A stretch of DNA of 43,575 nucleotides. Origin: a virus. Below are positions 1,220-43,406 of this stretch, one piece after another. Every line of letters starts with the position of its first letter. The stretch's first letter is position 1. Under the pieces are notes generated by a model. It did no database searches, had not been told where the DNA came from, and saw only the letters and a program-made list of their open reading frames with translations. The stretch lies in IMG/VR virus record IMGVR_UViG_3300045988_078367. The stretch is one strand, 5' to 3'. Both the position numbers and the translations under genes were made by a program.

Positions 1220-1624
1220 TTAAGCGGGAAAGGTGGCGGAAATAGTCAGTGGAGTAGCAAGGCTTACGCCATAGGCACGATTGCAACATTTTACATTTTC
1301 CGGTGTCACCTGTGTAACAAGCGGAGTCAAAGAGATAGTAGGGACAGCACCGGCAGCACCAATGAATGCAACCTTGAACTGTTCAACCCATTGTTTGGTA
1401 ACAGAACGGCAAGAACCTTTCGGAGTGTAGGCTACAAGAACGGCAGCGTTTATTGTCACGATAGTTTGAGTATTTACCGTCTGTTGCTCTGCAACGGTAA
1501 AATTAACAATGCCGGTAGGCTGTACACCATTGTCAGCACAAAACGCCTGGCATAAGTTTTCCACTACGTTAGTCAGATATTGCTGGCTGGTAGCAGCGAT
1601 TGCAATTGGAGTTAATTGAATCAT
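1220..1624 (-). CDS. Hypothetical protein, 134 aa, T/V/A-rich with a CC pair
   Basis: ORF tightly spaced within the left-end cassette. No recognised domain. Confidence 0.55.
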   Translation of the reverse strand: MIQLTPIAIAATSQQYLTNVVENLCQAFCADNGVQPTGIVNFTVAEQQTVNTQTIVTINAAVLVAYTPKGSCRSVTKQWVEQFKVAFIGAAGAVPTISLTPLVTQVTPENVKCCNRAYGVSLATPLTISATFPA

Positions 1625-1643
1625 AATAATAAAGATTTATATG

Positions 1644-2105
1644 TTATTTTTCGTCCGCATCTTCACCTTGCGGAGTAGGTTCTTCTGTCAACACGCTATA
1701 AGATGAAGTTGCCTCTTTAATAGGAAGATTGTATTTGAGAAGGGTTTTCAACTCTTCCAAGTCCTCCGGCTCAAATTCAACCTTTCCTTCAAATAAGGAC
1801 AAACCTCCGTTTTTTATAGCATCATCCACCACGTTATGGGCAAGTTGCGGGATGGAGTCATCCGGGATACCGCTTATATATTTGGCGAGAAAAGGTTCTA
1901 CGAGGGAGGACGAAACACCATCAAGAACAGGAGATATCTCCTTTGCCATGCTCCACATCGGACTTACCCATCCGGTAGATTTTATCTTCGATTCGATGCT
2001 GGAAAGAAAAGGCAACCGGCTCAAATTATTACCCAGTAACTCTTGGATAGCGGGCTGCGCCCATTTATTGAGCACAGCCGCCAGTTTTTGTGCGTTGGAA
2101 TACAT
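1644..2105 (-). CDS. Hypothetical protein, 153 aa, acidic C-terminus
   Basis: ORF begins 5 nt after the stop of 2111..2611. No recognised domain. Confidence 0.55.
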   Translation of the reverse strand: MYSNAQKLAAVLNKWAQPAIQELLGNNLSRLPFLSSIESKIKSTGWVSPMWSMAKEISPVLDGVSSSLVEPFLAKYISGIPDDSIPQLAHNVVDDAIKNGGLSLFEGKVEFEPEDLEELKTLLKYNLPIKEATSSYSVLTEEPTPQGEDADEK

Positions 2106-2110
2106 AACGC

Positions 2111-2611
2111 TTACCCGTTACAGCAACATCCGGTATCACACACCTTTCTTTGAGGAACAACAAGCTCACTCAACGCAGCCAGTTCTGCAATCTGTTGTTT
2201 CATACAGCTAATCGTAGCGGTATTTACACCATTGTAAACTGCCTGATTCATGTTGATTCCATTTTGCTCATCCTTGTTTCTGTTGATGATAGTTAGAAGA
2301 CGATCATAAACATCAGCAAGTTTCTGATCCGTGTAGGTGTTAGACTTAAGCAACGCAATTTCAGAATCTTTCGCTGCGAGCTTATCCATCATACCGGCTT
2401 CATAGCGGCTGACAGGTCTGTCTTCCGAAGTAATTACTTCTACCGGGCCTGCATAACCTGCATTACGTCCGTTTCCGCAACCACCAAAGAGACTTCCTGC
2501 ATTAAGCCCAAGGAAAGACGCAATACCAGCGGAAGCACCCACTGTGTTATAATTACCTTGTCCCTGTCCGGTGACGCTGTATTCCTCACCACTCATTCCT
2601 TTAATTTTCAT
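2111..2611 (-). CDS. Hypothetical protein, 166 aa: Gly-rich hydrophobic N-terminal tract, coiled-coil-like middle, C-terminal CDTGCCCNG
   Basis: N-terminal GASAGIASFLGLNAGSLFGGCGNG looks like a glycine zipper. Four Cys fall in the last 9 residues. Confidence 0.55.
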   Translation of the reverse strand: MKIKGMSGEEYSVTGQGQGNYNTVGASAGIASFLGLNAGSLFGGCGNGRNAGYAGPVEVITSEDRPVSRYEAGMMDKLAAKDSEIALLKSNTYTDQKLADVYDRLLTIINRNKDEQNGINMNQAVYNGVNTATISCMKQQIAELAALSELVVPQRKVCDTGCCCNG

Positions 2612-25641: not shown

Positions 25642-27171
25642 TTATTCGTCACTGTCTTTTAACATTAAATCTCCATTCATTAACAGAGGAAGCATTGAAT
25701 CCCTAAGCTCCGCAAGAAGCCTGTTTTCTTCATTGTTGAGATAATAAAGATGTTGTTTATACATATTCATGAAGAAAGGCATGATACTTGACAATATCTC
25801 CTTATCTGTATTTTCAATCACAAAAACCTTACTATTAGATGACTGGATATATTTGTTCTCAATAATTTTTTCTTTTACTTCATAATTTTTGAACAAAGAA
25901 AAACTTTCATTTATGGCTTTTACAACTTCATTAGTTGCTTCACAATCACTTATTACCTCTGCAAGCCCCAGCCTTTCCGCCCATACTTTATTGACAGTAA
26001 CTTTAATAACATTGCGTTCACGGATAATACGATTAATATCTGATATGATGGCATTAAAGTCACGATGAATCGTTCCTTCCAATTCAATAGATAAATATGG
26101 ACCAATAGTCAAGTTATACCCATGCTCTTCCAATTCTTCCTGGGAGATTCTTTTTGAAAATGAATCTTGCTCTTTTGTTGTAAGCTCACATATAGCAGCG
26201 ATTTGTTCATCTGAAAAAGTGTTGAACTCTTTTTTGTAAATACGGTTATAATGTGAAGCATTACCTTCTCCACGTTGTTCTCTCACCTCAACTGATTTCA
26301 TTTTTTCCGCATTAACAAGCATTACCTCTTTGCTTATATTTTTCTTATCAAGCAAGAGAATACATGTAGCAACAGAGGTAGATTCAAACATCTTTTCTGG
26401 TAAAGAGATAGCAGCTTTCAGCCAACCTTTAGATATAAGATACTTCCGACACTCTAGTTCTTCTTTGCTTGTTAAAACACCTCTAGGTAGAATCAATGCG
26501 CATCGTTCGCCTCTTTGCAGGCAATGAGCTACAAAAGCAAAATTACAGGTGTATTTTAAAGGTAAATCCTTTGTAATATCTTCGGAAACTGAAGATTTTA
26601 AATTGAAAGGAGGGTTTGACACGCTTACATCCGCTTTCTGGAGTTCTGTTTCCGGGAACATAGGACGTTGGACAGAAGCATACATAGCCCCCTTCACTGT
26701 ACTGTATGAATGGAAAATATCGCCAGATAAAATATCTCTATTCACAATAGTAGCTTCAATATTCCGGATACAGAGATTAAATAAAAGGATTGGCAATACC
26801 TTTTCGTCCAACTCCTCACAGATAAATTTCAATTTCGGATTAGCGCACCACTTTTGGATAGACAAAGCTCCGGAACCACAGCAGCAGTCATAGACCACTT
26901 TTTCGCCTGGCATATAGCTAAGATAAGCAACAAGTTTAGCAAGAGCCACTGGCGTATAATCCTGTTTCTTCTCGGTCCTATCTGCATGATAAAACTGATA
27001 CACCCTTTGTAGCCAGTCTACAGTCAAATCCGGACACACTTCTTTGTATTTATCAAAATACATTGTCGGATTTTGAGAAAATAAAGCAAACATTATCTTA
27101 TCCGGGAGTGTATCAACACTGGCACACCCAAAAAGATCACATATTCTCGCTGTTAATTCTTTTAGTTCCAT
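25642..27171 (-). CDS. N6-adenine DNA methyltransferase (HsdM-like, gamma class) fused to an HsdS-like C-terminal region
   Basis: Motif I VYDCCCGSGALS and motif IV VSNPPFN. The C-terminus LLAELRDSMLPLLMNGDL resembles the conserved end of type I S subunits. Start moved to the ATG at 27171 (MELKEL); the ORF track extends to 27225 and overlaps the upstream gene. Confidence 0.75.
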   Translation of the reverse strand: MELKELTARICDLFGCASVDTLPDKIMFALFSQNPTMYFDKYKEVCPDLTVDWLQRVYQFYHADRTEKKQDYTPVALAKLVAYLSYMPGEKVVYDCCCGSGALSIQKWCANPKLKFICEELDEKVLPILLFNLCIRNIEATIVNRDILSGDIFHSYSTVKGAMYASVQRPMFPETELQKADVSVSNPPFNLKSSVSEDITKDLPLKYTCNFAFVAHCLQRGERCALILPRGVLTSKEELECRKYLISKGWLKAAISLPEKMFESTSVATCILLLDKKNISKEVMLVNAEKMKSVEVREQRGEGNASHYNRIYKKEFNTFSDEQIAAICELTTKEQDSFSKRISQEELEEHGYNLTIGPYLSIELEGTIHRDFNAIISDINRIIRERNVIKVTVNKVWAERLGLAEVISDCEATNEVVKAINESFSLFKNYEVKEKIIENKYIQSSNSKVFVIENTDKEILSSIMPFFMNMYKQHLYYLNNEENRLLAELRDSMLPLLMNGDLMLKDSDE

Positions 27172-27181
27172 ATCTTTTTTA

Positions 27182-27481
27182 TTACTTTTCCATTTTTCTT
27201 TTAAGATTACTGTATTCATCCTCAATGCACTTGCTTATCTTAGCTGCATCTTCGTAACGTTCAGACTCTATCAGTATTCTTTTTATCTCTTCAAGCTGAT
27301 TGATGTATACGATGTCATTGCGATCCGTTACGTGCTGAATATAACTTTTGATGTCATTCAGCTTGCCCTCCATGCGTCTGTGCCATTTGCTTATTAAAAT
27401 TACAATGATGGCAACGGTTGTGGCATTGAGGATGAATAATGCGATTTTAAGTATTAGTTCTGCTACTTCGCTTATTGGCAT
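27182..27481 (-). CDS. Small membrane-anchored coiled-coil protein (99 aa from MPISEV)
   Basis: The ATG at 27481 is preceded by AAAGGAGGAA with a 7-nt spacer. N-terminal TM helix. Confidence 0.5.
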   Translation of the reverse strand: MPISEVAELILKIALFILNATTVAIIVILISKWHRRMEGKLNDIKSYIQHVTDRNDIVYINQLEEIKRILIESERYEDAAKISKCIEDEYSNLKRKMEK

Positions 27482-30878: not shown

Positions 30879-31361
30879 CTAATTGATTCGTATATACTTA
30901 CCTGCGATATCGCAAGTTCTTAATATATCGGCATTATCTTCACCGAAAGCTATTAGGACACTGCCGCAACCGGGCGAATCTCCACGAGTCCCATCAGGCC
31001 GGAAGAACCTAATCCGGTTACGCAAAAACTTCATCGCTGTTGCCTTTTCGAATATGACATCCTGAAACATCTTTGAATCACAACGATTAAAGAGTAATGC
31101 AATTCCGTTTCCATGTTCTGCCATCCGTTTTATAAACTGTTCAATAAGCGGACGGGAATAAGGAGGATTAAGCCAAACACGACCTACCCAATCTTTAGTT
31201 AATCCGTCATGGTTCTTGTTGTACATTTGTGTAGCTGTTTGCCAAAGCGGTTTAACCGGAGCGCATGGATCTAAATCGAACTTTCCCAATGCGTCTATAA
31301 TTTCTTTTGGCGTGTACCATTCATCGGTGGTATTAACCGATTTCTCAAAGGTTGTATTCAT
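30879..31361 (-). CDS. Phage-type DNA N6-adenine methyltransferase (Dam, PF05869-like)
   Basis: DEWYTPKEIIDALGKFDLDPCA and WLNPPYS motifs. Typical size of 160 aa. Confidence 0.75.
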   Translation of the reverse strand: MNTTFEKSVNTTDEWYTPKEIIDALGKFDLDPCAPVKPLWQTATQMYNKNHDGLTKDWVGRVWLNPPYSRPLIEQFIKRMAEHGNGIALLFNRCDSKMFQDVIFEKATAMKFLRNRIRFFRPDGTRGDSPGCGSVLIAFGEDNADILRTCDIAGKYIRIN

Positions 31362-31375
31362 TGAAAATATTTTAA

Positions 31376-32449
31376 TTAATTGTCCAATTCTTCTATCGCT
31401 TTGAAAATTTCAAGAATCACCTGCGGAACTATGGCGTTTCCGTATCCTTTGACTGATTCCTGTCTCCACTTTGTGAAAGGAATGGTAAGGTTGTCCACAT
31501 CAAAGGGAAGCCCATCATTTCCTCGACAAACAGGGGATTGAGTTGGGAACTTTTCCCAGTTTGTGCAAAGCAATCTGCAAGATTGTTGGTCATTGGATTT
31601 CTCCCTCTCTTTTGGATACTTTCTATTGTTGGAGCACCTTTGTAATCTCTCATCGTTGGGGTAGGAAGTATTTGCACCATTCTCGCAAGCCCTACACTTC
31701 CGTTTATTCCGTTCTGATTGACCTTCCTTAGGGTGCCGTTTCCAGTCGTAACAAAATGGTCGTTCCTGCCGATTATCGCTCCGGTTGTTGCATCGCTTGC
31801 CATTGGTGTCGGGAGTAATTCTATCGGATAAAACCTTGTCTTCCCGTTCTCGTCGCACATCTTCAGTCCTTGAGTCTGCACAGTGGGCAATAAACCACAC
31901 TCTGTCTCTTCTGTGGGGCGCTCCGACGGCACAAGCCGGAATAAGCAACGGTTGGACGGAATATCCTTCTCGCTCAAGGTCTTTACAGATGGTTTCGACA
32001 ACATACTCTTGTCGTAGCAATATTCTTTTTCGGTTATCTTCTCCGAAAAGAGAGGTTTGGCTTTCCACTTCAGTCTCCTTGCCGGGCTGAACCATCGTGA
32101 GGATTCCAGCAACGTTTTCACCAATAACCCAAGCGGGTCGGATTTCTCGTATAGCACGGAGCATGTGCGGCCAGAGGTAGCGGTTATCATCCGCTCCCTT
32201 TCTCTGACCTGCGAGGGAGAAAGGCTGGCAAGGAAATCCGCCTGTGAGGACATCGATTCTTCCTTTCCATTGACTAAAGTCTGTTTTTGTAATATCTTCA
32301 TAATGTTCTGAATCAGGAAACCAATATTTTAGTATCTCGTTGCAAAAAGGGTTTATCTCACAGTGAAAGGCATTTTCCCATCCCATCCATGAAGCTGCAA
32401 CGCTAGGGGCATCAAAGCCGCTGAATAAACTGCCATGAACTAATTTCAT
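31376..32449 (-). CDS. DNA cytosine-5 methyltransferase (frame A, 357 aa)
   Basis: Motif I LFSGFD, IV GGFPCQPFS, VI GENVAG, VIII APHRRDRVWF and X YGNAIVPQV. The central 120 aa or so is low-complexity R/E/K/N/D-rich. Confidence 0.8.
   Translation of the reverse strand: MKLVHGSLFSGFDAPSVAASWMGWENAFHCEINPFCNEILKYWFPDSEHYEDITKTDFSQWKGRIDVLTGGFPCQPFSLAGQRKGADDNRYLWPHMLRAIREIRPAWVIGENVAGILTMVQPGKETEVESQTSLFGEDNRKRILLRQEYVVETICKDLEREGYSVQPLLIPACAVGAPHRRDRVWFIAHCADSRTEDVRREREDKVLSDRITPDTNGKRCNNRSDNRQERPFCYDWKRHPKEGQSERNKRKCRACENGANTSYPNDERLQRCSNNRKYPKEREKSNDQQSCRLLCTNWEKFPTQSPVCRGNDGLPFDVDNLTIPFTKWRQESVKGYGNAIVPQVILEIFKAIEELDN
31429..32301 (-). CDS. Alternative-frame ORF (frame B, +1 relative to frame A, 290 aa) carrying methyltransferase TRD/motif IX-like signatures
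   Basis: ELLPTPMASD, ILPTPTMRDYKG and LNPLFVEEMMGFPLMWT are read in this frame. There is no stop for 873 nt inside the C5-MTase gene. Confidence 0.3.
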   Translation of the reverse strand: MKILQKQTLVNGKEESMSSQADFLASLSPSQVRERERMITATSGRTCSVLYEKSDPLGLLVKTLLESSRWFSPARRLKWKAKPLFSEKITEKEYCYDKSMLSKPSVKTLSEKDIPSNRCLFRLVPSERPTEETECGLLPTVQTQGLKMCDENGKTRFYPIELLPTPMASDATTGAIIGRNDHFVTTGNGTLRKVNQNGINGSVGLARMVQILPTPTMRDYKGAPTIESIQKRGRNPMTNNLADCFAQTGKSSQLNPLFVEEMMGFPLMWTTLPFLSQSGDRNQSKDTETP

Positions 32450-42080: not shown

Positions 42081-43406
42081 TTACAGATCATTGTTTATAG
42101 ACGAAGTACTGGAAAGGCTTTCTCCAAATACATAGTCGGCCACTTTACTTATTACTTTGTCTATTCTTGAGAAGTCCCGTTTAATATAGGTGTCTGTTAT
42201 TGTCTTACCATCTGAATGGTTCAGGCATAGCGATATATCGTCTTTACTTATATCGCATTCATTACGGGCAATAGTAGCGAAAGAATGGCGAGCAGAATAG
42301 AATTGAATATAATCTATCCCAATCTCCTCACACAGAGACCTCATACCCCGATGTATTCCTTTCGTCAGATTACGTATATTACTATATCTCTTATAAAAAT
42401 CAAATAGACAATTTCCAGATGGATCACGATATTTTTCAATGATGGGGAGTGCCAAAGGGTGAATGCATACAGAAATAAAAGCCTTATCCTTTCTCCGATC
42501 TTTTGTTTTTTGGCGTTCATACTCTATTCTACCGTTTACCATTTGACAATCAAGCATATCAATCGCATTCATTCCTGCCAACAGGAAAGACAAAATATAA
42601 ATATCACGGGTAAAAGTAGTAGTTCTTTTTCGTTTATTTATTGGAGAGTAATTATAGATTTTCCTGATTATATCAACATCTACAGCTCTTTTCTTTGCTT
42701 CCAAGACTGGCGGGATAGTATATACTTTAAACGGGTCATTGGTTATTATAATATCTCCTTTTTCGTAATCATTAAAATATAGTAAGGCCGCATTAAATAC
42801 AGACTGGATTACCCCCATATAAGAATGCACACCGGTATCATTTAAAGCCGGTTTTCTAATTGTCCTATACTCTTGTTTTGCTGTTCTGTTTTGCCTGACA
42901 GTGATTAATCTTTCTTTTCGCAACCATCCTTCGTATTCTCTTAATAACTTAGACGTTAAGTCTTTTATTGAGAGTTTATCATTACCATTTTTATATTTAA
43001 GAAAATGACAAAGTGCATTTATTCCGGTAGTCTTAACTGTTCTAGTCCCCGCATTGGGAGTCATTTGGATATGCTGTCTAGCAAATTCTATGAAATCTAT
43101 ATCCTTACGCTTCTTCCGTCTTTCGATCATTAAAACAATATCCTTAGACGTCTCACATTCCTGGACAATCTCTTGATTATCATTTATAATATGGCGATAC
43201 TCCTTCACTATATCATCAAGTTCTTCTTTTATTTTTTCTAAAGTAATAGTACCTGAAGCCGATTTTTTCTTAAATCGAACCATATCCGTATATATGGGAG
43301 TTGATATATACGATGATGTTCTGTTATGTGATATTCGGATTTTGGGATTGTATGTACCATCCGATTTTTTATGATGCTTAAATACTACCCATGATACAGT
43401 TGCCAT
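42081..43406 (-). CDS. int: Tyrosine recombinase/integrase
   Basis: 441 aa. The C-terminal catalytic region has ...YSARHSFATIARN... (R-H) and ...LNHSDGKTITDTYIKRD (H...Y). Adjacent to the att repeat. Confidence 0.85.
   Translation of the reverse strand: MATVSWVVFKHHKKSDGTYNPKIRISHNRTSSYISTPIYTDMVRFKKKSASGTITLEKIKEELDDIVKEYRHIINDNQEIVQECETSKDIVLMIERRKKRKDIDFIEFARQHIQMTPNAGTRTVKTTGINALCHFLKYKNGNDKLSIKDLTSKLLREYEGWLRKERLITVRQNRTAKQEYRTIRKPALNDTGVHSYMGVIQSVFNAALLYFNDYEKGDIIITNDPFKVYTIPPVLEAKKRAVDVDIIRKIYNYSPINKRKRTTTFTRDIYILSFLLAGMNAIDMLDCQMVNGRIEYERQKTKDRRKDKAFISVCIHPLALPIIEKYRDPSGNCLFDFYKRYSNIRNLTKGIHRGMRSLCEEIGIDYIQFYSARHSFATIARNECDISKDDISLCLNHSDGKTITDTYIKRDFSRIDKVISKVADYVFGESLSSTSSINNDL

What the first reader, a model, noticed from the sequence alone, without database searches (positions are those of the whole stretch)
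31376..32449. C5-methyltransferase locus with two long overlapping same-strand frames; canonical motif order needs frame A, then B, then A
Frame A (31376..32449, 357 aa) has C5-MTase motifs I (LFSGFD), IV (GFPCQPFS), VI (GENV) and VIII (PHRRDR) at its N-terminus and motif X (YGNAIVPQV) at its extreme C-terminus. Its central 120 aa or so (HCADSRTEDVRREREDK...NDQQSCRLL) is R/E/K/N/D-rich low complexity.

Frame B (31429..32301, 290 aa, shifted +1) reads ELLPTPMASD, ILPTPTMRDYKG and LNPLFVEEMMGFPLMWT over exactly that central stretch. In phage-type C5-MTases these (L)PTPxxxD and MGFPxxWT signatures lie between motif VIII and motif X. The textbook architecture therefore appears only as A->B->A, a +1 shift followed by a -1 shift.

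Neither frame has a stop over 873 nt. This includes about 420 nt where frame B overlaps the catalytic core, which is improbable by chance in AT-rich DNA.

A C_CCT_TTG heptamer (X_XXY_YYZ form, 31501..31507) sits right after the MGFP codons. A -1 slip there would join frame B to ...DVDNLTIPFTKWRQESVKGYGNAIVPQV. That puts MGFP about 20 aa before GNA, the usual spacing.

Possible explanations:
- Programmed frameshifting that yields isoforms.
- A split enzyme encoded by overlapping frames. Split C5-MTases such as M.AquI are a precedent.
- A dual-coding gene.
- Two compensating indels.
Basis: partly seen in the sequence, partly recalled or inferred. Interest (0 to 1): 0.85.

Follow-up and report, generated by a model that had tools for sequence, protein, structure and literature searches.

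The report
Methylase gene hiding a second gene
This phage DNA-cytosine methylase gene carries a second 290-codon gene nested in its +1 frame. Together they most likely encode the two subunits of one enzyme, as in the known oddity M.EcoHK31I, and the same nested layout recurs in at least 130 phage and bacterial loci.

Summary
On the minus strand, frame A (31376..32449, 357 aa) and frame B (31429..32301, 290 aa, +1) are both open, and the third frame is full of stops.

This is not an assembly indel or a slip-site recoding signal.
- **Recurrence:** the nested pair occurs in 130 of 167 loci examined, including phages of Bacteroides, Paenibacillus, Lacticaseibacillus, Acinetobacter and Synechococcus.
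- **Stop avoidance:** synonymous resampling predicts 5-17 stops in each alternative frame; none are seen.
- **Which frame is selected:** substitution phase shows frame A selected over motifs I-VIII. Frame B is selected over the central PTPxAxD modules and motif IX.
- **Frame B start:** it begins upstream of motif IV. In hosts that use Shine-Dalgarno sites, 76% of loci have one before it, against a 16% background.
- **Slip site:** the proposed CCCTTTG heptamer occurs in only 12 of 117 loci.

Best reading: two polypeptides. Alpha carries motifs I-VIII, a disordered linker and motif X. Beta carries an N-terminal extension, target-recognition modules and motif IX. M.EcoHK31I (1995) is the biochemical precedent.

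I class it as a new member of a known kind. Pfam and NCBIfam have no model that matches beta.

The parts
31376..32449 (-). Alpha ORF (frame A), 357 aa. C5-methyltransferase large-domain chain: motifs I-VIII, a linker, then motif X.
   Evidence: ORF list. PF00145 E = 2.6e-36. phrog_363 E = 3.9e-67. M.HhaI matches residues 8-117.
31429..32301 (-). Beta ORF (frame B, +1 relative to alpha), 290 aa from the first ATG, wholly nested in alpha.
   Evidence: ORF list. phrog_1008 E = 4.3e-22. 3955 homologues. 2818 clusters at 50% identity match its C-terminal 161 aa.
32411..32428 (-). Alpha motif I, LFSGFD. This is an atypical form; relatives such as BS-TP4 have LFSGIGG.
32216..32239 (-). Alpha motif IV, GFPCQPFS (catalytic Cys). 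The same bases read DFLASLS in beta.
32111..32122 (-). Alpha motif VI, GENV.
31901..31918 (-). Alpha motif VIII, PHRRDR.
31559..31879 (-). Alpha linker, residues 191-297. Charged, low-complexity, cassette-like and variable among relatives. Its sequence is dictated by beta's coding sequence, but it is kept free of stops.
   Evidence: 69% RKEDNQSG. AlphaFold2 pLDDT 23-37, with no secondary structure beyond one short low-confidence helix. Alignment shows cassette indels. Its first codon position is the most variable phase. 14.7 stops expected, none seen.
31508..31561 (-). Alpha pre-motif-X segment, NWEKFPTQSPVCRGNDGL. It overlaps beta motif IX in the other frame, and both readings are conserved.
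   Evidence: In locus L155 the two readings occur one after the other in a single frame.
31418..31444 (-). Alpha motif X, YGNAIVPQV.
31900..32301 (-). Beta N-terminal extension, residues 1-134, overprinted on alpha motifs IV-VIII. Candidate starts are the ATG at 32299..32301 and Met17 at 32251..32253.
   Evidence: Over this interval in 31 lineages, 1 stop was observed against 99.9 expected. Synonymous-codon identity in alpha is 0.492 against 0.376 expected, bootstrap 95% CI of the difference 0.07-0.15.
31546..31899 (-). Beta central modules, residues 135-252 (GLLPTV..., ELLPTPMASD..., ILPTPTMRDYKG...). Putative target-recognition region.
   Evidence: Beta's third codon position is the most variable phase (0.64-0.70 against 0.45-0.61), so frame B is the selected frame here. 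Module number and order differ between phages.
31492..31542 (-). Beta motif IX, LNPLFVEEMMGFPLMWT.
   Evidence: Invariant columns in the beta alignment. Joined in silico to alpha's C-terminus it aligns to PF00145 positions 280-323. The natural in-frame version in L079 aligns to 277-322.
31432..31491 (-). Beta C-terminal tail, residues 271-290. The stop codon (31429..31431) lies inside alpha's motif X codons.
   Evidence: Across 130 loci beta's stop lies a median of 1.5 codons before alpha's GN of motif X.
31501..31507 (-). It is present but not conserved.
   Evidence: Present in 12 of 117 related loci.

Best explanation
The locus encodes a two-polypeptide DNA (cytosine-5) methyltransferase from two fully overlapping same-strand genes.

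- **Alpha (frame A)** makes the large catalytic, AdoMet-binding domain: motifs I-VIII, then about 107 residues of disordered linker, then the motif X helix that returns to the large domain.
- **Beta (frame B, +1)** is initiated independently at an internal start upstream of motif IV. It supplies what alpha lacks: the small domain, made of PTPxAxD target-recognition modules plus motif IX. These are preceded by a roughly 130-residue N-terminal extension overprinted on alpha motifs IV-VIII. By analogy with M.EcoHK31I, that extension probably helps beta dock onto alpha.
- **The linker** need only be stop-free. Its sequence is a by-product of beta's coding sequence.

**Shown here:** both ORFs are kept open by selection; which frame is under protein-level selection in each segment; the position of beta's start and its Shine-Dalgarno signals in relatives; conservation of the layout across phyla.

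**Inferred:** that the two chains associate, that both are required for methylation, and that beta determines target specificity.
For: 1. **Same nested pair in distant phages.** Bacteroides phages BKO1-TP3 and BS-TP4; Paenibacillus phage Leyra, whose record annotates both CDSs; Lacticaseibacillus phage R9.1; Acinetobacter phage ABMM1 and Synechococcus phage S-H1.
2. **Frequency.** 130 of 167 examined loci are strictly nested. These come from IMG/VR and from GTDB genomes of Bacteroidota, Bacillota, Chlamydiia, Omnitrophota, Pseudomonadota and others. The third frame is always closed.
3. **Stop avoidance in both frames.** P(no stops) was at most 0.0045 per locus in the seven loci tested.
4. **Stop avoidance over alpha motifs IV-VIII alone.** 1 stop was observed against 99.9 expected in 31 lineages. 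The summed log10 of the per-lineage probabilities is -52.6, treating lineages as independent.
5. **Substitution phase.** Frame A is selected over motifs IV-VIII; frame B over the central modules and motif IX.
6. **Raised synonymous-site conservation** in alpha where beta overlaps: 0.492 against 0.376, with no bootstrap replicate at or below zero.
7. **Beta's start.** The first ATG lies upstream of motif IV in 120 of 130 loci. A Shine-Dalgarno-like motif precedes the start in 22 of 29 loci with the W-type motif IX variant, mostly non-Bacteroidota, against a 16% background.
8. **Beta's end.** It ends at alpha's motif X. In the top 150 library representatives, nearly every match whose best stretch reaches the query's C-terminal end also lies at the protein's own C-terminus.
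9. **Natural variants split the enzyme at other domain boundaries.** In L155, alpha stops after motif VIII and beta carries IX and X. In L079, L160 and L166, alpha carries IX and X and beta carries only the modules.
10. **Alpha linker** is predicted disordered.
11. **Biochemical precedent.** M.EcoHK31I beta is encoded entirely within alpha in another frame and carries motif IX. Both chains are required, and beta's N-terminus is needed for association (PMC2836561; PMC3404938).
Against: - There is no direct evidence of translation, association or activity for this locus.
- AlphaFold2 of beta alone is poor (pLDDT 42.5). Its fold and its identity as the MTase small domain rest on motif IX and on position, not on structure.
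- The Pfam match of motif IX is weak (12-14 bits, E = 0.04-0.12).
- Over the N-terminal extension the most variable phase is beta's second codon position. That part is only weakly constrained as protein and could be little more than a leader.
- Motif I in the window's clade is atypical (FSGFDAPS).
- Some chromosomal copies keep beta intact while alpha is decayed (L089-L094). The simple two-subunit model does not explain this.
Confidence: 0.8

Rival explanations
1. Programmed double ribosomal frameshifting: +1 after motif VIII, then -1 after MGFP. This would produce one canonical chain of motifs I-VIII, TRD, IX and X, as the only product or as a minor isoform beside alpha and beta.
For: The homology and selection pattern is A, then B, then A. 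A CCCTTTG heptamer sits at the MGFP codons in the window. The in-silico B-to-A junction gives canonical IX-to-X spacing and a weak PF00145 match over positions 280-323.
Against: The heptamer occurs in only 12 of 117 loci, and any X_XXY_YYZ site in 41 of 117. I did not scan for a +1 site after motif VIII, so none can be cited. The model does not explain selection keeping frame B open over motifs IV-VIII, or frame A open through the linker. It also does not explain the Shine-Dalgarno motifs before beta's start. The end of beta relative to motifs IX and X differs between lineages. Two successive low-efficiency shifts would yield very little product.
Confidence: 0.07
2. Beta is a real overprinted protein, but its function is independent of alpha (for example a DNA-binding or anti-restriction factor). 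Alpha alone is the methyltransferase and uses its central region as the TRD.
For: Copies with intact beta and decayed alpha exist in several Bacteroides chromosomes (L089-L094), and the matching beta cluster is abundant (P0104, 1140 members). For M.EcoHK31I the literature assigns the TRD to alpha.
Against: Alpha's centre is low-complexity and predicted disordered. It has cassette-like indels, and alpha's first codon position is its most variable phase. It is therefore not under protein-level selection. Beta carries the only motif IX. In L155 beta carries motif X as well, which ties beta to the methyltransferase fold.
Confidence: 0.08
3. Artefact or decay: two compensating indels from assembly error, or a recently frameshifted pseudogene.
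For: Public protein sets contain many alpha-N::beta fusion ORFs with scattered junctions, which look like single indels. An E. coli prophage copy is annotated as a pseudogene with an internal stop.
Against: The identical two-frame layout occurs in isolated, independently sequenced phages of five host genera and in 130 loci. Frame-specific purifying selection persists over deep divergence. Stops are avoided in both frames.
Confidence: 0.02

Closest known systems
M.EcoHK31I (E. coli HK31; Lee, Kam & Shaw 1995, cited in PMC2836561 and PMC3404938)
   Same: A C5-methyltransferase made of two polypeptides. Beta is encoded entirely inside the alpha gene in another reading frame. Alpha has motifs I-VIII and X; beta has motif IX. 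Both are needed for activity, and beta's N-terminal part is needed for association.
   Different: Its beta is shorter (176 aa, from my own recollection of the 1995 paper) and alpha is 309 aa. The literature places the TRD in alpha, whereas here the selected frame over the variable region is beta's. It belongs to a restriction-modification system, while this one is a phage-borne methylase with no nuclease identified nearby. Sequence homology was not tested because the sequence was not in hand.
M.AquI (two-subunit C5-methyltransferase)
   Same: A naturally split C5-methyltransferase whose parts reassemble. The variant in locus L155 copies its split: alpha carries I-VIII, beta carries TRD, IX and X.
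   Different: In M.AquI the larger subunit carries motifs I-VIII and the smaller carries IX-X. In the window, alpha keeps motif X. From my own knowledge, not checked here, the M.AquI subunit genes are not nested one inside the other.
Nested 'DNA methyltransferase' CDS pairs annotated in Paenibacillus larvae phages (e.g. Leyra gp61/gp62, NC_048692)
   Same: The same family and the same nesting. Beta is 31% identical to the window's beta over 91% of its length.
   Different: The passages matching 'methyltransferase' or 'overlap' in the genome paper (PMC6070908) list two cytosine methyltransferases but do not comment on nesting or mechanism. There are fewer recognition modules, and Shine-Dalgarno-driven initiation is evident.
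Multispecific Bacillus phage C5-methyltransferases (SPR, phi3T, rho11s type; own knowledge, not tested)
   Same: Phage-borne C5-methyltransferases whose variable region holds several tandem, exchangeable target-recognition modules. Beta here has 2-6 shuffled PTPxAxD modules.
   Different: Those are single chains in one frame. No sequence similarity was demonstrated here, and multispecificity of beta is speculation.

Membership tests
C5 DNA methyltransferase (PF00145), alpha chain | Significant match to the family profile, with motifs I, IV (PCQ), VI (ENV), VIII (RxR) and X (GNxV) | tested here: met
   PF00145 E = 2.6e-36, above the curated cutoff. Motifs located. TIGR00675 scores 99.7 bits, just under its 100.65 cutoff. 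Motif I is atypical (FSGFD).
C5 DNA methyltransferase (PF00145), alpha chain | Motif IX and a folded target-recognition domain between motifs VIII and X in the same chain | tested here: not met
   Alpha residues 191-297 are low-complexity and predicted disordered. They are not under protein-level selection. Alpha's C-terminal fragment gives no PF00145 match.
M.EcoHK31I-type heterodimeric C5-methyltransferase | Beta ORF lies wholly inside the alpha ORF, same strand, different frame | tested here: met
   31429..32301 lies within 31376..32449, in the +1 frame.
M.EcoHK31I-type heterodimeric C5-methyltransferase | Alpha has motifs I-VIII and X; beta has motif IX | tested here: met
   The motif IX assignment is supported by natural in-frame relatives and by a weak PF00145 alignment to positions 277-323.
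M.EcoHK31I-type heterodimeric C5-methyltransferase | Both polypeptides are made and both are required for methylation | not testable with these tools
   Indirect support only: selection keeps both ORFs open, and Shine-Dalgarno motifs precede beta's start in relatives.
M.EcoHK31I-type heterodimeric C5-methyltransferase | Sequence homology of alpha and beta to M.EcoHK31I alpha and beta | not tested
PMC306636 is not held and no supplement is held.
M.EcoHK31I-type heterodimeric C5-methyltransferase | TRD located in alpha, as stated in the literature | tested here: not met
   Over the variable region the selected frame is beta's. The literature assignment for EcoHK31I may itself rest on position only.
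Programmed -1 ribosomal frameshift cassette | A conserved slippery heptamer at a fixed position | tested here: not met
   CCCTTTG occurs in 12 of 117 loci and any X_XXY_YYZ site in 41 of 117, between motif IX and beta's stop.
Programmed -1 ribosomal frameshift cassette | A stimulatory RNA structure downstream of the slip site | not tested
   No fold was computed downstream of 31501..31507.
M.AquI-type split C5-methyltransferase | Alpha has I-VIII; beta has distal TRD, IX and X | tested here: not met
   In the window, motif X is in alpha. The relative L155 does have the AquI-type split.

The most novel reading that the evidence does not exclude
M.EcoHK31I is not a one-off. It would be the first-described member of a very large, ancient family of phage and mobile-element C5-methyltransferases in which 200-400 codons are dual-coded.

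- The large domain is read in one frame. In the +1 frame lies a swappable, possibly multispecific cassette array of target-recognition modules plus motif IX.
- The family spans many bacterial phyla, with at least 2800 clusters at 50% identity.
- Pfam and NCBIfam have no model that matches beta, and in the one RefSeq record examined only alpha is annotated. Many 'short TRD-less' cytosine methyltransferases in databases may therefore really be half-enzymes.
- This would make it one of the longest and most widely conserved same-strand overlapping gene pairs in prokaryotic and phage genomes.
Probability: 0.5. Interest if true: 0.75.

Novelty: new member of a known kind. Interest (0 to 1): 0.6.

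Why it matters
- **Annotation.** In the one RefSeq (PGAP) record examined only alpha is annotated, and no Pfam or NCBIfam model matches beta. The specificity-determining half of these enzymes may therefore go unannotated. Methylome-to-gene assignments could then fail, and alpha expressed alone could be inactive.
- **Overlapping genes.** Long, conserved same-strand overlaps are considered rare in bacteria and phages. Here 81% of a gene is dual-coded, with frame-specific selection that can be measured in more than 100 lineages. That makes it a good natural system for studying how two proteins share one sequence.
- **Protein engineering.** The natural variants split the enzyme at several domain boundaries. 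They offer ready-made designs for split methyltransferases.
- **Gene finding.** A single indel anywhere upstream produces a long, plausible fusion ORF. This explains the odd chimeric 'methyltransferases' in metagenome protein sets.

Tried and rejected
The chimera scored 126.9 bits against 126.1 for A alone, so the test does not discriminate.
- **PDB sequence search with a beta profile.** No match at E up to 1.
- **AlphaFold2 of beta alone.** pLDDT 42.5, too poor for a fold search.
- **AlphaFold2 of alpha alone.** pLDDT 47.6. I used it only for the contrast between the ordered N-domain and the disordered linker. The alignment was shallow, at 74-97% identity.
- **Alpha + linker + beta model.** I tried a concatenated alignment to model the complex. 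MAFFT aligned the beta homologues onto the alpha part, so I abandoned it. A properly paired alignment from the 130 loci would use sequences the prediction tool does not accept.
- **Fully in-frame canonical relatives.** I looked for single chains with I-VIII, PTP modules, IX and X. None turned up among the 167 loci or the top 150 representatives. L079, L160 and L166 looked in-frame but still hide the modules in the +1 frame.
- **The 1995 M.EcoHK31I paper and sequence.** Not held.
- **E. coli genomes.** Only 4 of 5426 hold a relative of the Acinetobacter-phage copy. The one I examined has stops in both frames and is annotated as a pseudogene.
- **Literature searches.** Searches for a description of the phage-wide nesting found none. 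The library is incomplete, so this does not show that no description exists.
Full report
**1. The observation**

The gene is on the minus strand. Frame A (31376..32449, 357 aa) and frame B (31429..32301, 290 aa, +1 relative to A) are both open. The third frame is full of stops.

Frame A carries motifs I, IV, VI and VIII at its N-terminus and motif X at its C-terminus. Frame B reads ELLPTPMASD, ILPTPTMRDYKG and LNPLFVEEMMGFPLMWT over A's central stretch, and the CCCTTTG heptamer is at 31501..31507. Frame A matches PF00145 (E = 2.6e-36). Frame B matches no Pfam family but matches PHROGs phrog_1008, 'DNA methyltransferase'.

The double openness is not chance. With A's protein held fixed and synonymous codons resampled, about 6 stops are expected in frame B (P of none = 0.0005). 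With B's protein held fixed, about 15 stops are expected in frame A, and none of 2000 resamplings was stop-free.

**2. It is systematic, not an indel**

The closest isolated phages are Bacteroides phages BKO1-TP3 and BS-TP4. Each annotates a single methyltransferase CDS (389 and 440 aa). In both, the +1 frame is also open (320 and 372 aa) and reads PTPxAxD modules plus LNPLFVxEMMGFP. The number and order of modules differ from the window.

A tblastn search with frame B found the same protein at about 31% identity over about 90% of its length in 48 Paenibacillus larvae phage records. It also matched Lacticaseibacillus, Acinetobacter and Synechococcus phages. Details of individual records:
- Paenibacillus phage Leyra: the record itself annotates a 345-aa methyltransferase and a 234-aa 'methyltransferase' nested in it.
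- Lacticaseibacillus R9.1: 283 aa with 201 aa nested.
- Acinetobacter ABMM1: 304 aa with 298 aa nested.
- Synechococcus S-H1: 271 aa with 218 aa nested.

A pattern scan of IMG/VR and of one genome per GTDB species returned 160 more loci. In 130 of 167 loci the motif-IX frame lies strictly inside a frame that carries PCQ and GNxV, and the third frame never exceeds a few dozen codons. Hosts include Bacteroidota, Bacillota, Chlamydiia, Omnitrophota, Cloacimonadota, Pseudomonadota and Spirochaetota.

Frame B has 3955 homologues in the 5.8-billion-protein set. Its C-terminal 161 residues match 2818 clusters at 50% identity.

**3. Which frame is selected where**

I built a codon alignment of 104 non-redundant frame-B sequences and measured diversity at each codon position.
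- Over alpha motifs IV-VIII, the most variable phase is B position 2, which is A position 3 (0.54 against 0.20 and 0.28). Frame A is the constrained protein there.
- Over the central modules and motif IX, the most variable phase is B position 3 (0.64-0.70 against 0.45-0.61; motif IX 0.47 against 0.19 and 0.25). Frame B is the constrained protein there, and A's centre is a passenger.

Both 'passenger' stretches are nevertheless kept free of stops.
- Over motifs IV-VIII alone, in 31 lineages below 70% identity, frame B has 1 stop against 99.9 expected. The median per-locus P(none) is 0.022. The summed log10 is -52.6, treating lineages as independent.
- Frame A's linker has none against 6-17 expected.
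- Synonymous-codon identity in alpha is higher where beta overlaps: 0.492, against 0.376 expected from the upstream non-overlapped part with the same amino-acid mix. The bootstrap 95% CI of the difference is 0.07-0.15.

**4. Geometry and initiation**

Frame B opens a median of 31 codons upstream of alpha's PCQ. Its first ATG is upstream of PCQ in 120 of 130 loci. Its stop lies a median of 1.5 codons before alpha's GN of motif X.

I split the loci by motif IX variant. Of the 29 with the W-type form, which are mostly non-Bacteroidota, 22 (76%) have a Shine-Dalgarno-like tetramer 4-13 nt upstream of beta's start. Examples are AAGGAG plus 7 nt then ATG, and AGGAGAGG plus 6 nt then ATG. The background is 16%. 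Of the 88 loci with the F-type form, which is the Bacteroidota-like form, only 1 has such a tetramer. That fits hosts that, from general knowledge, rarely use Shine-Dalgarno sites.

The proposed slip heptamer is present in only 12 of 117 loci.

**5. Natural variants**

- In L155 (a Bacillota MAG), alpha stops right after motif VIII. Beta carries the N-terminal extension, six modules, motif IX, the pre-X segment and motif X. This is an AquI-like split, but it still overlaps motifs IV-VIII.
- In L155 the two readings that share the same bases in the window (LNPxWVEWLMGFPxGWT and EPxxPRVAxGxPxRVDRLK) occur one after the other in a single frame. Both readings therefore appear to be functional peptides.
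- In L079, L160 and L166 (Rickettsiales type), alpha carries I-VIII, linker, IX and X. The +1 frame carries only the PTP modules.

The split point moves between lineages, but the modules are always in the other frame. This fits domain-level complementation and does not fit a fixed recoding site.

About 15 loci have single stops or indels. Public protein sets also hold alpha-N::beta fusions with scattered junctions, as expected when any indel joins two open frames.

**6. Structure**

AlphaFold2 of alpha gives a recognisable alpha/beta N-domain, with pLDDT 60-85 in the core elements. Residues 192-344 have pLDDT 23-37 and lack secondary structure through most of the linker. The alpha alignment shows near-invariant ends and a cassette-like centre full of indels.

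AlphaFold2 of beta alone is poor (pLDDT 42.5), so no fold comparison was possible. A beta profile finds nothing in the PDB by sequence.

Motif IX identity rests on three things:
- the invariant LNP..V..MG.P..WT columns;
- natural in-frame motif IX-to-X relatives;
- weak PF00145 alignments to profile positions 277-323, at 12-14 bits.

**7. Mechanism**

The best explanation is two polypeptides. Alpha is the large domain, with a stop-free disordered loop standing where the small domain would be. Beta is the small domain (recognition modules plus motif IX) with an N-terminal extension.

This is the architecture shown biochemically for M.EcoHK31I. There, beta is encoded entirely within alpha in another frame and carries motif IX. 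Both chains are required, and N-terminal deletions of beta weaken association (PMC2836561; PMC3404938).

Association, requirement of both chains and specificity are inferences for this locus.

Double frameshifting cannot be excluded as a minor route. It is not needed, it lacks conserved signals, and it leaves the selection on both full ORFs unexplained.

**8. Novelty**

The gene architecture has a characterised precedent, so I class this as a new member of a known kind. Three things may be under-appreciated:
- the breadth of the family;
- the evidence that the variable, recognition-type region is read in beta's frame rather than alpha's;
- no Pfam or NCBIfam model matches beta, and the one RefSeq copy examined annotates only alpha.

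My literature searches found no paper describing the phage-wide pattern, but the library is incomplete.

**9. Context**

The window looks like a temperate Bacteroides-type phage. It has an integrase at 42081..43406, a large terminase, a tape-measure protein, a DnaC-like loader, a replication initiator and an exonuclease. It carries two further methyltransferase genes beside the nested pair.

Noticed in passing
window 30879..31361 (-) and 25642..27225 (-): Two more DNA methyltransferase genes sit in the same phage. One is a Dam-like N6-adenine type (phrog_111), ending 14 nt downstream of the nested pair. The other is a 527-aa enzyme (phrog_6380). The phage therefore carries three methylases.
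   Followed up: partly
window 32411..32428 (-): Motif I of alpha is LFSGFDAPS rather than the canonical FxGxGG. It is invariant or nearly so in 51 close homologues, whereas BS-TP4 has LFSGIGGPE. The effect on AdoMet binding is unknown.
   Followed up: partly
proteins P0010, P0023, P0052, P0065, P0078, P0093, P0094, P0098 (public sets): These are chimeric ORFs that join alpha's N-terminus to beta at different points, and all end at beta's stop. They look like single indels, either assembly errors or real knock-outs, that are read as long genes because both frames are open.
   Followed up: partly
L089-L094 (Bacteroides faecalis, B. faecis, B. reticulotermitis and related chromosomes), about 1416..2532: Alpha is decayed: no motif I, a stop after motif VIII and no motif X. 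The beta ORF is intact (335-353 aa), and the matching cluster P0104 has 1140 member sequences. The two-subunit model does not explain this.
   Followed up: partly
L155 900..2720; L079 1100..2200: These loci show alternative split architectures of the same enzyme. In L155 alpha ends after motif VIII and beta carries IX and X. In L079-type loci alpha carries IX and X and the +1 frame holds only the recognition modules.
   Followed up: yes
L006 1120..1776 (Synechococcus phage S-H1); L005 1114..2010 (Acinetobacter phage ABMM1): In L006, beta's N-terminal 'DFPAKTS' motif is simply the +1 reading of alpha motif IV, GGFPCQDIS. The corresponding stretch in L005 reads 'AAFRAKTS'.
   Followed up: partly
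L167 800..1580 (E. coli PCP07014 prophage): This E. coli relative of the nested pair has stops in both frames at the same place and is annotated as a pseudogene, with only alpha recognised. Only 4 of 5426 complete E. coli genomes hold a relative of the Acinetobacter-phage copy.
   Followed up: partly
window 42081..43406 (-): An integrase lies at one end of the window, and a public contig holding the identical beta protein has the same length (43575). The window is probably a whole temperate-phage or prophage contig.
   Followed up: no
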